From: Bispira polyomma
Taxonomy: Eukaryota
Direction: 5' to 3'
Assembly: GCA_965649765.1 (NCBI GenBank)
Contig: OZ287758.1
Coordinates: forward strand, 5,828,001 to 5,892,000
Length of the DNA: 64,000 nt
Both the position numbers and the translations under genes were made by a program. Below the pieces are notes generated by a model that saw nothing but the letters and a program-made list of their open reading frames with translations, searched no databases and was not told the DNA's origin. Of this stretch, positions 101 to 14,681 are shown piece by piece (the stretch's first letter is position 1; each line of letters starts with the position of its first letter).

Positions 101-258
101 AATCTCCTAGACGAGGCCTTAGAGCGGTTCCCCGACCTTGAGAAGGACGTCTGGGCCAAGGTCATTTACACCGAGAAGAGTCAGGTGGTGGGGAAGTTGT
201 ACCTGAGGGAGAAGGAAGTGATTATAGACAGCAGTAAAGAGGACTTTGAGGGAAAAGT
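101..258 (+). CDS. Expansion-like gene, first exon in window (NLLDEALERF...EDFEGK)
   Basis: Acceptor ttttgttccag ends at 100; donor gtgagt at 259; phase 2 joins to 796 to give V-IGLNSF. Confidence 0.85.
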
Positions 259-12200: not shown

Positions 12201-14681
12201 AAGGCAGCTGTAGTAACGAGGGACTAGAGAAAAAAATAGAATAATATTTTTGGGGGGATGTCGACTGCTTGCTGACAGACACTATAGGTTGTGGTACTAA
12301 CAATAGCCACCAGCTGCTTGCTGACAACCTGAGTGTTGTGACCACACCTTCACTCTATTAGATTTAGATCTTTCCACCGGTTATCTGAGCCAAATCTCAG
12401 TCTCAGTCAATGTGAGGTTGTCATTAAGTGCCGGAAGTAGTCTGTGGTGTGTGATTTAGTGACTTCAACTATCTGTAGCCTATTACCAACCCCCAAAAAT
12501 TTCTTCAGCTCCGCCGGTGGTTTTTCACTCAGTCACAAATGGGTTAAACATTCAGACAACACAGACTTATTGTATGTGCAATGACTTATTGCATGTATGA
12601 CCCAGGCCTGTCCAATGGTGCTATAAAAGTTTAGATTAGATTAGATTACATGTAAATGTCAGAATGAAGAAAAAGCCGGGGACCTATGTGGTGTAGTGCT
12701 TTAGTGGTAACACTCTTGTCTCCTACCTCGGCAGTCGTAGGTTTGAATCTCAGCCGCGGAAGTGTATGCGGCCAAATTGGCAGTAGACTTGCTGAAGGCT
12801 GTTGGTTTGCAAAATAGAAAAACTTAACTATACCATGATCCGATTTCCTTCCATCAGGGAACTGCTGCCTATCATGATATGACACATGTGTTAAAAGTAA
12901 CTATATCTAAATGTGATTTTCATAAATATCTGCCTTTGCCAAATTTTTGGCATTTCATCATACTGTTGGGTGGTCAACTACATATTGACAAACTCTGTAC
13001 TGGTGAATAATATTTCGCTTATTTCTGGTCAAACACATTTTGTATGTGAAACTAACCTATAGGAAATCATGGGCTGGTAATCTTTTGCTGTGGTCAGATT
13101 TGACCTTGGACCCCTCTTGCAAGGTCAAACAGGTAGGCCATACTTTAAATCAGAGGCTTCTAAATTGGGTGCTAGCTAGGGGGCTTGCTATCTAGGGTGC
13201 TTTGTATTTCTGGTGGATACAAATATGCATCGGTTCTCTGATGCGCTAACCCTAGTTTCCTCCCCGCTGCTTGTGCATTATTTTCCTTAAATATGTCCTT
13301 CAATATTATCTGGTTCAAAATAATTTTTTTGGCAGTTATCTTAACTAGGAGTGGGAAATGTTTTTTTCAAATTCTTGGATTTAAACTTTGGCCTACTTAA
13401 AGGCCAGATGACCCTAGGGTGTAAAAGTGCTTGTCACTGGGTTTTCACAAAAAATATTTGTCATAGCTTAATAAAATTTGGCATGTAGATTGGTAAGGCA
13501 ATTTTCTGGACTAATCGGATGATAATTAACTGATTGACGACCGATAGATTTTTTATTGAAATGCATTGGGATTTCTACTTTTTGTTGGTATAAGTTGTTC
13601 ATCTACTTTTTGATTTTATGTATGATGTAATAATCTCATGGTTCTTAATCCAGTATTTAATGAGAACTGAGTACTTCAAATGAGTAGTTTGCCCTATTGT
13701 GCTCTATCTTGCACTTTTATTAAGTTTTCTTTTGAATTACTTGTCATAGTTTAGTGAAATTTAGCTTGCATATTGCAAATGCAATATCTTACTCTGTAAA
13801 TGTTTAGATCAACCTGGTGATAATTGACTAATTGACAGGGCAGATAAATCGTACAAAATGGTAAAAGAAAGATAGACCGATTTGAGCTCATTTTTGACCC
13901 ACAGGGCTGATTCTGCTTATATGTCGACGTTTCAAAAAATTTCCAATTTACTGGCCATCTTAAATTTCTGCCTCTTTTTTGAAAACGTACATTCTCCCGG
14001 AAATGGGGCTAAATAGAGCAATTTTGAACTAATTTCAGACACACAGGGTTCATTGTGCGGAGATAATGTTCTCAAAAACTTTCTAATTTTGGTGGCTATC
14101 TCAAATTTCTGCGACTTTTTCATAGGCTTTGATTATCTCGTCCGATAGGGCTCATTTTAAGGAGTTTATGTCAACTTTTCAAAAAGTTTCCCATATTGGC
14201 GGCCATCTTGAATTTCTGGCGGCTCTGTCAAAACTGTCATGACTTTACCTTTTACTTTAACCTCATACAGTAAACAACTTAATGGTTGCTTCAACTTCAG
14301 GGATCCTTTGTTTTTGTTGTCGAAAACCATTTTCTAGTTGTCTACTAGATTTGTGTGCTTCAGTGTAGGGACTTCCCCAAAAAGCCAGCGCAAAGCTGCA
14401 CTGGTAATTTTATAATAAAAGGCGCTCTGTGTGAATGTTGATATATAGCACATATTACTTTTATGCCCTGGTTATAGTAGAGGAGAGTTTTATATCTTTC
14501 TATGGGGAAGTCTCTACACACTGTGCACGAGCAAACTTATGTTAAATTTGAAAGTATTTGTAACTATGTATATTAAATTTTTTTTTTAAAAAACAACTAA
14601 TTTGTTGTGTGTTTGTATTCTGTTACAGTCCAAGTGCCTACCAACAGAAAGACATGGGCCAAATTAAAAGTGGGATACTGA
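101..14681 (+). CDS. Expansion/Rebuf-like atypical Smad MH2-domain protein, 5'-partial; join(101..258,796..859,2072..2230,3090..3282,6205..6269,7738..7840,11559..11663,14629..14681)
   Basis: Eight exons with GT-AG boundaries and compatible phases (2,0,0,1,0,1,1) sum to 900 nt = 299 aa + TGA. The translation VWAKVIYTEKSQVVGKLYLREKEVIIDSSKEDFEGKVIGLNSF...KKIGKGVKLSRDGLGNIYATRLSD...KIFCMMEYKSHIALELQRASIDQRKLQSLSMLSFAFVRNTFDDLDTPCWVTVINFMALDVL follows the MH2 motif order and matches the Expansion-type pattern as I recall it (WAKI..., IGL.GF, IG.GVK...D..GNI, AFVK, P.WV..VN..A.D.L). There is no C-terminal SSxS. Confidence 0.85.
259..608. repeat. (GT)-rich compound microsatellite/minisatellite (gtgtgtggct units)
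   Basis: Begins at the exon donor; explains the C/V-rich and H/T-rich ORFs at 119-762. Confidence 0.95.
796..859 (+). CDS. Expansion-like gene exon (IGLNSFPSTSKDMKLLKKIGK)
   Basis: Acceptor tttgttttcacag; donor gtgagg at 860; supplies the MH2 'IGL...IG' segment. Confidence 0.85.
966..1410. mobile_element. MITE, PIF/Harbinger-like
   Basis: Perfect ~36-bp TIRs AGTGAGCGTTTCCATGCAGGCAACTTTCTGAGGCGA / TCGCCTCAGAAAGTTGCCTGCATGGAAACGCTCACT, with TA/TWA flanks and no ORF. Confidence 0.9.
1567..1800 (+). mobile_element. tRNA-derived SINE (family also at ~7245-7460, ~12675-12900, ~16565-16830, ~52445-52570)
   Basis: A-box-like TGACCTAGTGGTTAG, shared body catgtgg-aa-gt-tgtcaggtacttgc...ggtttc..ccac...aaatctgg-c-t-gtga-atgacc in several copies. 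Confidence 0.7.
1852..2057. repeat. ~70-bp tandem repeat, 3 diverged copies, abutting the acceptor of exon 2072
   Basis: Recurring ttatggt...tggtatgaata...taaac..gactataaactt. Confidence 0.85.
2072..2230 (+). CDS. Expansion-like gene exon (GVKLSRDGLGNIY...GKAMK)
   Basis: Acceptor caacag, donor gtagct at 2231; GC-rich coding island, in frame with ORF 2051..2254. Confidence 0.88.
2213..2365 (+). repeat. Degenerate tandem copies of the exon-end/donor junction of exon 2072-2230
   Basis: aaggcaaggcaatgaag|gtag at the true junction, aaggaaaggccatgaaggcag at ~2270, aagggaagggaatgaaggtag at ~2338. Confidence 0.75.
2800..3128 (+). repeat. Five tandem copies of the acceptor + first ~38 nt of exon 3090
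   Basis: at(c/t)ttctgtat(g/a)atggagtacaagagtcacatc starts at 2824, 2893, 2968, 3028 and 3090, separated by (TA)n/(CT)n tracts. Confidence 0.92.
3090..3282 (+). CDS. Expansion-like gene exon, end of MH2 domain (IFCMMEYK...TPCWVTVINFMALDVLGNEH)
   Basis: Acceptor ctgctcttag, donor gtgagt at 3283; contains the MH2 TPCW motif. Confidence 0.88.
3896..5695 (+). mobile_element. Non-autonomous Helentron-associated element (HINE) with internal ~142-bp tandem array
   Basis: 5' subTIR AAGCATCCCT (3898) with adjacent inverted copy AGGGCGCTT (3913) and a (GCC)n tract; 3' subTIR AGGGACGCTT (5655), hairpin GTTTTTG-ttat-CAAAAAC and terminal CTAGTT. Confidence 0.8.
4809..5605. repeat. ~142-143-bp tandem array, ~5.5 copies, inside the HINE
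   Basis: tatctcggaaacggtgctagatagagcgatttcgagct recurs near 4810, 4953, 5096, 5238, 5380 and 5523. Confidence 0.95.
5758..6114. mobile_element. hAT-type MITE
   Basis: TIRs TAGTGGGTAAATTGTTT / rc TAGTGGACAAGTTGTTT; 8-bp TSD ATGTTCAG / CTGTTCAG. Confidence 0.8.
6205..6269 (+). CDS. Expansion-like gene exon (ILQEVKSLSHLNLSDVEDAQLR)
   Basis: Acceptor tatttttag, donor gttagt at 6270; phase 1 in and 0 out bridges the neighbouring exons. Confidence 0.7.
6530..6780. mobile_element. MITE with GGCCGTATTCAC TIRs (related copy ~55890-56102)
   Basis: gggccgtattcac ... gtgaatacggctcc; the second copy has aggccgtattca ... gtaaatatggccc. Confidence 0.6.
6970..7245 (-). mobile_element. L2/CR1-clade LINE 3' end fragment
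   Basis: Homologous to 58825-59135; the reverse strand encodes a degenerate F..ASPLLWNSLPVDLRSSDTFIGFRK. Confidence 0.7.
7738..7840 (+). CDS. Expansion-like gene exon (RNWAKLHLRRDLAMAEKESRRESKESPLSKQENS)
   Basis: Acceptor ttctcactatacag, donor gtgagt at 7841; phase 0 in, 1 out. Confidence 0.75.
7805..9836 (+). repeat. 57-bp minisatellite (~24 contiguous units plus one beyond a MITE) made from the exon 3' end and donor site
   Basis: Unit gtgagttgtcatagttacagtgtaaagagtggccacttagtaaacaggcaaacaatg. The first partial unit is coding sequence of exon 7738-7840. Confidence 0.97.
9214..9786. mobile_element. hAT-type MITE inserted in the 57-bp array
   Basis: Perfect 13-bp TIRs TAGTGGTGTCATC / GATGACACCACTA; 8-bp TSD GTGATGAG / GTGGTGAG; the array resumes in register at 9787. 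Confidence 0.9.
9998..10193. mobile_element. pogo/Tigger-like MITE (TA-flanked; relatives at ~11158-11508 and 54187-54370)
   Basis: TA|CAGTAGAACCTCTATTATC...GGATAATGTAGATTTCTCTTCTG|TA. Confidence 0.6.
10217..10846. repeat. 44-bp minisatellite, ~14 copies
   Basis: Unit ctgtagtgtcttattagaggagacaggccgggctcttgctctaa. Confidence 0.95.
11559..11663 (+). CDS. Expansion-like gene exon (EDSEENPPSNRSSGNQEYLAALDRFKDTLEESPLE)
   Basis: Acceptor atgtccag, donor gtaaga at 11664; 105 nt, phase 1-1, GC-rich and stop-free. Confidence 0.75.
13010..13257 (+). mobile_element. 3' end of a second HINE/Helitron-like family (related fragment at ~25870-25940)
   Basis: Hairpin GCATCGG-ttct-CTGATGC followed by CTAGTT; gaaatcatgggctggtaat is shared with ~25890. 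Confidence 0.5.
13255..14339 (+). mobile_element. Diverged copy of the 3896-5695 HINE
   Basis: Colinear similarity with 3940-4620, decayed 142-bp units, and the same 3' end agggatcctttgtttttgttgtcgaaaaccattttctagtt. Confidence 0.8.
14629..14681 (+). CDS. Expansion-like gene last coding exon (VQVPTNRKTWAKLKVGY*)
   Basis: Acceptor gtattctgttacag; phase 1; TGA at 14679-14681; repeats the R-x-x-W-A-K-L motif of the 7738 exon. Confidence 0.7.

What the first reader, a model, noticed from the sequence alone, without database searches (positions are those of the whole stretch)
101..14681. Expansion/Rebuf-like MH2-only protein in an apparently non-ecdysozoan (mollusc-like) genome
Seen: a clean 8-exon, 299-aa frame with an MH2-type domain, no SSxS tail and a charged C-terminal extension. 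Established, from memory: Drosophila Expansion and Rebuf are atypical Smad-like proteins needed for chitin-synthase-dependent chitin deposition and are described mainly from arthropods and nematodes. Inference: the surrounding repeats and the coiled-coil C1qDC gene suggest a lophotrochozoan host. If so, this could be an uncharacterised regulator of chitin deposition in shell matrix, radula or chaetae.
Basis: partly seen in the sequence, partly recalled or inferred. Interest (0 to 1): 0.75.

Follow-up and report, generated by a model that had tools for sequence, protein, structure and literature searches.

The report
Myosin tail resembling insect chitin factor
This is the spliced back end of an animal gene that starts outside the window; it is likely the tail of a known kind of worm-and-shellfish myosin motor, and it carries the type of domain that fruit flies need to release chitin, although a chitin role here is untested.

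Summary
The 8-exon, 299-aa frame is real. Contigs from a related organism are spliced over it, and 13 of 15 listed codon changes are silent. Its MH2 is of the Expansion type, not SMAD.

'MH2-only' is not shown. Exon 1 is internal, and the related transcript continues at least 255 nt upstream. The nine best full-length matches all outscore Exp/Reb, and six of them carry a myosin head. The domain sits outside the Exp/Reb clade (100/97; AU p=0.037). The tail has the two W-x-K motifs of MH2-myosins and lacks the Exp motif CM2.

Best reading (0.72): the 3' end of a class-80-like lophotrochozoan myosin-MH2, an architecture in print since 2017. Rival (0.2): a motor-less paralogue, as the nearest named relative is annotated. 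The host is likely lophotrochozoan; mollusc versus annelid is unresolved.

What my searches did not find in print: these myosin tails are Exp-type N-alpha-MH2 domains, so Exp/Reb likely arose by motor loss. This scan noted the same link on two annelid windows. No chitin function was shown.

The parts
101..258 (+). Internal exon (phase 0 start, no Met): second half of the N-alpha helix and first strands of the MH2 domain
   Evidence: covered by X4 contig that runs on upstream as other sequence
796..859 (+). Exon 2, MH2 domain
   Evidence: spliced frame aligns through it to relatives; junctions not seen in contigs
2072..2230 (+). Exon 3, MH2 domain
   Evidence: X4 contig 19 joins it to exon 4 (table 8)
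3090..3282 (+). Exon 4, end of MH2 domain with short Exp-type L3 region
   Evidence: ungapped to 4R9P 175-235; 141 hits
6205..6269 (+). Exon 5, start of tail (helical in models of relatives)
   Evidence: X4 contig 19 difference at 6237
7738..7840 (+). Exon 6, with first W-x-K tail motif (7738-7755)
   Evidence: X4 contig 19 differences at 7800 and 7803
11559..11663 (+). Exon 7, low-complexity charged linker
   Evidence: supported only by length: 271 contig letters between exons 4 and 8 against 273 predicted less a 2-nt overlap
14629..14681 (+). Last coding exon, second W-x-K motif (14646-14666) and stop; no SSxS
   Evidence: the stop is kept as another stop codon in X4
14682..14968 (+). Start of the 3' untranslated region
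   Evidence: X4 contig 19 covers 14627-14968 and continues

Best explanation
The eight exons are the 3' end of a gene that starts upstream of the window and likely encodes an unconventional myosin of the class-80-like 'orphan' group, whose tail is an Expansion-type N-alpha-MH2 domain that would act as a cargo or scaffold adaptor on actin. Shown: the spliced frame, the 5' truncation, the Exp-type domain, the grouping with myosin-linked MH2 domains and the shared two-motif tail. Inferred from relatives: a motor, IQ lever helix and disordered linker upstream. Inferred from the Drosophila work: the N-alpha helix would block SMAD-type trimers and the short L3 region would not read phospho-SxS, so the protein would not act in TGF-beta signalling but would recruit a partner complex at the apical membrane. 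The motor would supply the apical targeting that CM2 supplies in Exp/Reb. The W-x-K motifs are conserved short helices of unknown partner; calmodulin binding is a recalled resemblance only. That the cargo concerns chitin synthase is a guess at about 0.3.
For: Nine best full-length BLASTP matches (E 1.8e-69 to 3.3e-40) rank above the first Exp/Reb protein (3.4e-35) among 141 hits; six of the nine carry Pfam Myosin_head, and a seventh begins with an IQ-like stretch (by eye). Profile scores of the domain: 238 bits against 10 myosin-type sequences, 210 against 7 of them with its own clade left out, 153 against 12 Exp/Reb. Tail: 25.4 bits against 8 myosin-type tails, 0 of 499 reported shuffles as high; 2.1 bits against 9 Exp/Reb tails, 57 of 500 shuffles as high. 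W-x-K motif in 12 of 14 myosin-type rows and 0 of 23 Exp/Reb rows; CM2 pattern in 7 of 13 arthropod-type rows, 0 of 10 Trichinella rows, 0 of 14 myosin-type rows, and not in the window. Trees: clade with P0007, P0016, P0103 at 98/96 and 94/96; split from Exp/Reb 100/97; AU p=0.037. A model of P0016 (myosin head end + IQ + MH2) matches 4R9P including the N-alpha helix, Z 28.4, rmsd 2.0, 201 residues, against Z 19.5 or less for SMADs. PMC5583752 passages describe these myosins and place their motors beside class-36 myosin-chitin synthases.
Against: No motor sequence lies in the window (tblastn) and no genome is held, so the fusion is not seen for this gene. The nearest named relative, Ridgeia P0007 (48-49% identity), is deposited as a 321-aa protein with no motor, and so is Solemya P0034. 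The 30 upstream letters shown for X4 are stop-free in frame but end in two Met codons at the junction (read by eye), so a start there is not excluded. No full-length member of the window's own clade was found. The trees have no SMAD outgroup and long branches; the AU result is marginal. Folds were predicted for relatives, not for the window's protein. Class-80 myosins occur in echinoderms and hemichordates, where I could not confirm chitin synthases, which weakens a chitin-specific role.
Confidence: 0.72

Rival explanations
1. A motor-less N-alpha-MH2 paralogue derived from the myosin-MH2 family by its own loss of the motor, starting at or just before exon 1, and working as an Exp/Reb-like apical scaffold by convergence.
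For: P0007 and P0034 are annotated without a motor; two Met codons lie at the junction in X4; the window's protein falls between P0007 and the motor-linked pair with weak support (84/46).
Against: The other two members of its clade show myosin remnants (P0016 Myosin_head E 1.5e-15; P0103 IQ-like start). Database models of this family are often cut: P0080 (566 aa) has a 1164-aa cluster mate. The upstream codons give a Phe at the place of the Phe/Tyr in the N-alpha helix of several relatives (by eye), as expected if coding goes on.
Confidence: 0.2
2. A true Expansion/Rebuf orthologue in a lophotrochozoan that gates chitin synthase as in Drosophila.
For: 4R9P is the best solved match; no SSxS; short L3 region; PMC4388265 says the family is conserved in Mollusca and Annelida (conclusion only).
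Against: Excluded from the Exp/Reb clade at 100/97, AU p=0.037; no CM2; tail is myosin-type; the same paper's results find full-length orthologues only in nematodes and arthropods; the Trp of the Exp N-alpha helix is missing in the X4 upstream letters (by eye).
Confidence: 0.05
3. A divergent SMAD or a dead gene copy.
For: Pfam MH2 match; repeats copy several exon edges.
Against: No SMAD hit to single exons up to E=10; its nearest relative scores 2.6e-27 to 4R9P and 2.5e-5 at best to a SMAD; spliced contig, kept stop and 13 of 15 silent changes in a related organism.
Confidence: 0.03

Closest known systems
Class-80 myosins and the lophotrochozoan orphan MH2 myosins (PMC5583752; e.g. Acanthaster XP_022083353.1, Patella XP_050406757.2, Sinanodonta KAL3892185.1)
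   Same: C-terminal MH2 domain followed by a 100-180 aa tail with two W-x-K motifs; 35-41% identity over the domain; same side of the tree.
   Different: Belongs to a second subgroup (with Ridgeia KAK2179916.1 and two unnamed myosin fragments) that holds none of the named molluscan proteins; lacks the Y-S-W motif that lies between the two W-x-K motifs in the mollusc and starfish tails; motor not seen in this window.
Drosophila Expansion / Rebuf (N-alpha-MH2, PDB 4R9P)
   Same: N-alpha helix before the MH2 core, short L3 region, no SSxS; 32-35% identity to arthropod-type members over the domain.
   Different: No CM2; shorter tail of another type; outside the Exp/Reb clade; likely sits at the end of a motor protein rather than at the N-terminus; no chitin role shown.
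SMAD MH2 domains
   Same: Same fold superfamily (Z about 19 for the model of P0016).
   Different: No SSxS, no hit by single exons, extra N-alpha helix, short L3 region.
Choanoflagellate and sponge myosin-III-like proteins with C-terminal MH2 (PMC3942036)
   Same: Motor plus MH2 architecture, proposed there as the oldest setting of MH2.
   Different: Not compared here; whether their MH2 has the N-alpha helix is untested.

Membership tests
Expansion/Rebuf | MH2 closer to 4R9P than to SMADs | tested here: met
   window exons; relatives
Expansion/Rebuf | N-alpha helix before the MH2 core | tested here: met
   exon 1 aligns to 4R9P 44-92; the model of clade-mate P0016 aligns from 4R9P residue 31; the first half of the helix lies outside the window
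Expansion/Rebuf | Short L3 region (11 residues against 17 in SMADs) and no C-terminal SSxS | tested here: met
   ungapped alignment to 4R9P 175-235; definition; C-terminus
Expansion/Rebuf | Conserved motif CM2 in the tail | tested here: not met
   CM2 was located from the deletion primers in PMC9894549 read against P0084. The pattern is also absent from 10 of 10 Trichinella rows, so it is not universal.
Expansion/Rebuf | Nested in the Exp/Reb clade | tested here: not met
   (100/97; AU p=0.037; unrooted)
Expansion/Rebuf | Domain at the N-terminus of a motor-less protein | tested here: inconclusive
   5' end outside the window
Expansion/Rebuf | Needed for chitin translocation | not testable with these tools
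   no expression or functional data
Class-80-like myosin-MH2 | C-terminal MH2 grouping with those of myosin-MH2 proteins | tested here: met
Class-80-like myosin-MH2 | Tail with two W-x-K motifs (a feature I drew from the relatives, not from print) | tested here: met
Class-80-like myosin-MH2 | N-terminal myosin motor and IQ in the same transcript | not testable with these tools
   no genome held; only 30 upstream letters are shown; no motor in the window
Class-80-like myosin-MH2 | Motor-domain placement (class 80, orphan, or beside class 36) | not testable with these tools
   motor not available
SMAD | C-terminal SSxS, long L3 loop, SMAD-level similarity | tested here: not met

The most novel reading that the evidence does not exclude
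Myosin-N-alpha-MH2 is the ancestral form of Expansion/Rebuf and the missing partner of the lophotrochozoan myosin-chitin synthases. Two sister motors would climb the same apical actin (microvilli of chaetoblasts, odontoblasts or mantle), one carrying the synthase and the other the domain that lets chitin out. Ecdysozoans would have lost the motor and gained CM2 for apical targeting. This gene marks a second, little-sampled subgroup of these myosins.
Probability: 0.25. Interest if true: 0.72.

Novelty: new member of a known kind. Interest (0 to 1): 0.4.

Why it matters
How Exp/Reb lets chitin synthase release chitin is open: the fly work finds no direct binding and calls for an unknown factor (PMC9894549). 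If the domain began as a myosin tail whose motor is sister to that of myosin-chitin synthases, actin-based apical positioning becomes the obvious thing to test, in flies and in animals that build chaetae, radulae and shells. The gene itself is one more member of an architecture described in 2017; the value lies in the link between the two literatures, and the function is untested.

Tried and rejected
No whole genome is held, so the upstream exons could not be read.

Word-index protein searches: exon 1, 0 of 9 candidates scored; P0007 domain against longer proteins, 0 of 751; alignment A1, 7 of 4966, of which one was a myosin-MH2 (Babylonia, the other subgroup) and six were motor-only matches.

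ESM Atlas: no usable hit for exon 4. For P0007 it gave arthropod MH2 clusters first and no myosin cluster; clusters under 50 members are not searched.

The 10 closest single-exon fragments looked up (up to 81% identity) name no organism, so the host's phylum could not be fixed. No direct taxonomic test was run on the C1qDC or HCN genes.

No RNA holder listed. Run X4 is labelled 'DNA?', but its contigs skip the introns. Joints for introns 1 and 2 were not shown.

The trees used hits covering 160 or more of the first 190 residues (37 rows), then 22 chosen non-redundant rows. Pfam was run on 30 of the 141 hits.

'MH2' had no occurrence in the radula transcriptome paper (text and one supplement) or the tubeworm supplement; these tables use other labels, so this is no evidence either way. 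Whether echinoderms have chitin synthase was not settled. The main supplement of PMC5583752 (a PDF) was too large to read and may discuss class 80 further.

The 615-aa and 488-aa ORFs near 7755-9622 are a 57-nt tandem repeat, not genes. No complex prediction was sent, as no partner is known.
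Full report
Observation. Enumerating AG/GT sites near the visible exons gave a stop-free 8-exon chain of 299 aa from 101 to 14681. None of 20000 random chains of the same sizes was stop-free. The chain begins at a splice acceptor with no Met. An in-frame ATG at 44 exists in the genomic flank, but a contig of run X4 leaves the window at base 100 and carries other sequence upstream, so that flank is intron in that organism. No genome is held.

Evidence that the gene is live. 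Four runs hold the DNA, three with 0.84-0.86 of the words and one, X4, from another organism with 0.06. One X4 contig of 1410 nt lies on 2108-2228, 3088-3282 and 14627-14968. Its coordinates run straight across intron 3, and it has 271 letters between exons 4 and 8, where exons 5-7 total 273 less a 2-nt overlap. Of the coding differences that the table showed (196 further rows were not shown), 13 of 15 codons were silent, counting the stop, which is kept. X4 is one run of one study and is labelled 'DNA?'; the spliced form is my reading of its contigs.

The domain. Exons 1 and 4 hit the Drosophila Expansion structure 4R9P and no SMAD; exon 3 hit nothing. Exon 4 aligns without gaps across the region that is six residues shorter in Expansion than in SMADs. 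There is no SSxS.

Which MH2 family. A full HMMER scan with exon 4 gave 141 proteins. Against the spliced frame the nine best full-length matches were P0007 (Ridgeia piscesae), P0034 (Solemya), P0016 (unnamed), P0035 (Sinanodonta), P0029 (unnamed), P0132 (Patella), P0080 (Littorina), P0103 (unnamed) and P0089 (Acanthaster), all above the first Exp/Reb protein. Six of the nine have a Pfam myosin head. The named proteins on the Exp/Reb side are Varroa, Blomia, Chilo, Phyllotreta, Drosophila and Trichinella; three rows there had no name and three were not looked up. Phylum labels for these genera are recalled. Profiles, tail shuffles and motif counts all place the window with the myosin-linked group. 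Two trees put it with P0007, P0016 and P0103 (98/96 and 94/96) and cut it from Exp/Reb at 100/97; holding it with Exp/Reb costs 14.4 log units, AU p=0.037. The trees are unrooted and have long branches.

Structure. Models were made of relatives, not of the window's protein. P0007 (pLDDT 72.5) has 4R9P as first Foldseek hit. P0016 (pLDDT 73.7) shows a long lever helix, a disordered linker, then a confident helix at 221-238 and the MH2 core. It aligns to 4R9P from residue 31 with Z 28.4, while SMADs align only from about residue 236-244 with Z 19.5 or less. Exp/Reb sequences were in that alignment, so the model may lean towards 4R9P. A myosin-linked member of the window's clade is thus predicted to carry the full N-alpha-MH2.

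What counts against the myosin reading. The motor is not in the window. The nearest named relative is deposited without a motor. The 30 upstream letters of X4, taken as those next to the junction, are open in frame but end in two Met codons (read by eye). No full-length member of this subgroup was found. I put a motor upstream at about 0.72 and a motor-less paralogue at 0.2.

Mechanism. From the fly structure paper (PMC4388265; passages and section 3.1 read), the N-alpha helix covers the SMAD trimer face and the L3 phospho-reading loop is cut short, so TGF-beta signalling is unlikely. From PMC9894549 (passages and one discussion section), the domain is needed for chitin translocation through an unknown partner, CM2 aids apical localisation, and no binding to the synthase was found. 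By inference, the protein here is an actin motor that carries a partner-binding tail to an apical site, with the motor doing what CM2 does. PMC5583752 (passages) reports that the orphan MH2 myosins group with or beside the class-36 myosin-chitin synthases, which is the best hint of a chitin link. Their class-80 kin in echinoderms and hemichordates are a caution; PMC3942024 (passages) lists deuterostome synthases in Branchiostoma, Ciona, Danio and Xenopus and does not mention echinoderms. I rate a chitin role at about 0.3.

Host. The nearest named protein is annelid. All six named molluscan proteins (five genera; Patella twice) fall in the other subgroup. A secreted coiled-coil C1qDC gene lies next door. 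Two earlier notes on this genome call it probably molluscan; I did not test them. Lophotrochozoan is likely; 'mollusc' is not established.

What is known. Myosins with a C-terminal MH2 are described for annelids, molluscs and ambulacrarians (PMC5583752) and for a choanoflagellate and a sponge, with the proposal that MH2 began on a myosin (PMC3942036, passages). PMC4388265 names Mollusca and Annelida in its conclusion but never uses the word myosin. I found no paper that links the two: searches (8 papers; 15 of 38 listed; 20 of 62; 1; 15 of 50; 8), in an open-access library only, and seen mostly as listings. PMC10216261 and PMC5995198 were seen as passages, and one supplement each of PMC5995198, PMC8476170 and PMC5583752 was searched by term. 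The unread PDF supplement of PMC5583752 may bear on this. Two earlier notes of this scan made the same link on annelid DNA; the first gave me the lead to class 80, which I then tested.

Verdict. A real, spliced, conserved gene end; an Exp-type domain; likely the tail of a known kind of myosin rather than a free Exp/Reb protein. New member of a known kind, interest 0.4, with a testable idea about the origin of Exp/Reb behind it.

Noticed in passing
window 20055-32941 (-): C1qDC gene: signal-peptide-like exon near 32860-32941, coiled-coil-like exon near 32215-32325, C1q exon (Pfam E 1.3e-21). The C1q exon changes frame at a run of 14 C at 20438-20451: an assembly slip or a broken gene.
   Followed up: partly
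window 42631-42734, 51868-52005, 53078-53505 (+): Last three exons of an HCN-type channel (best PDB hit HCN1, E 4e-19). Loose motif scans found no pore or transmembrane exon in the window, so the copy is 5'-cut, very diverged, or the MH2 and C1qDC genes lie inside one of its introns.
   Followed up: partly
window 44521-50257 (-): Ngaro-like tyrosine-recombinase retrotransposon in an HCN intron: four long ORFs with weak RT, RNase H-like and integrase hits and split direct repeats (44521-44777 against 49995-50257; 44000-44158 against 44851-45009).
   Followed up: partly
window 2953-3122, 7805-9214, 2240-2365: Tandem repeats copy the MH2 gene's own exon edges: a 62-nt unit repeats the exon-4 acceptor, a 57-nt unit x24.7 repeats the exon-6 donor, and a 68-nt unit follows the exon-3 donor. 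They offer decoy splice sites.
   Followed up: no
P0089, P0132, P0147, P0157, P0155, P0026: Database names hide both families: myosin-MH2 proteins are called myosin-IIIa/IIIb-like, IXAa or Id-like, and Exp/Reb proteins 'dwarfin sma-2'.
   Followed up: no
P0134 (Priapulus caudatus XP_014671956.1): A partial priapulid Exp-like MH2 with a long tail in which I saw neither CM2 nor the W-x-K pair (by eye); useful for dating motor loss.
   Followed up: no
P0021, P0030, P0113 against window 101 and 3090: Mis-predicted arthropod and Trichinella models break at the same places as the window's exon 1 and exon 4 starts, hinting at introns shared between Exp/Reb and this gene (by eye, no DNA checked).
   Followed up: no
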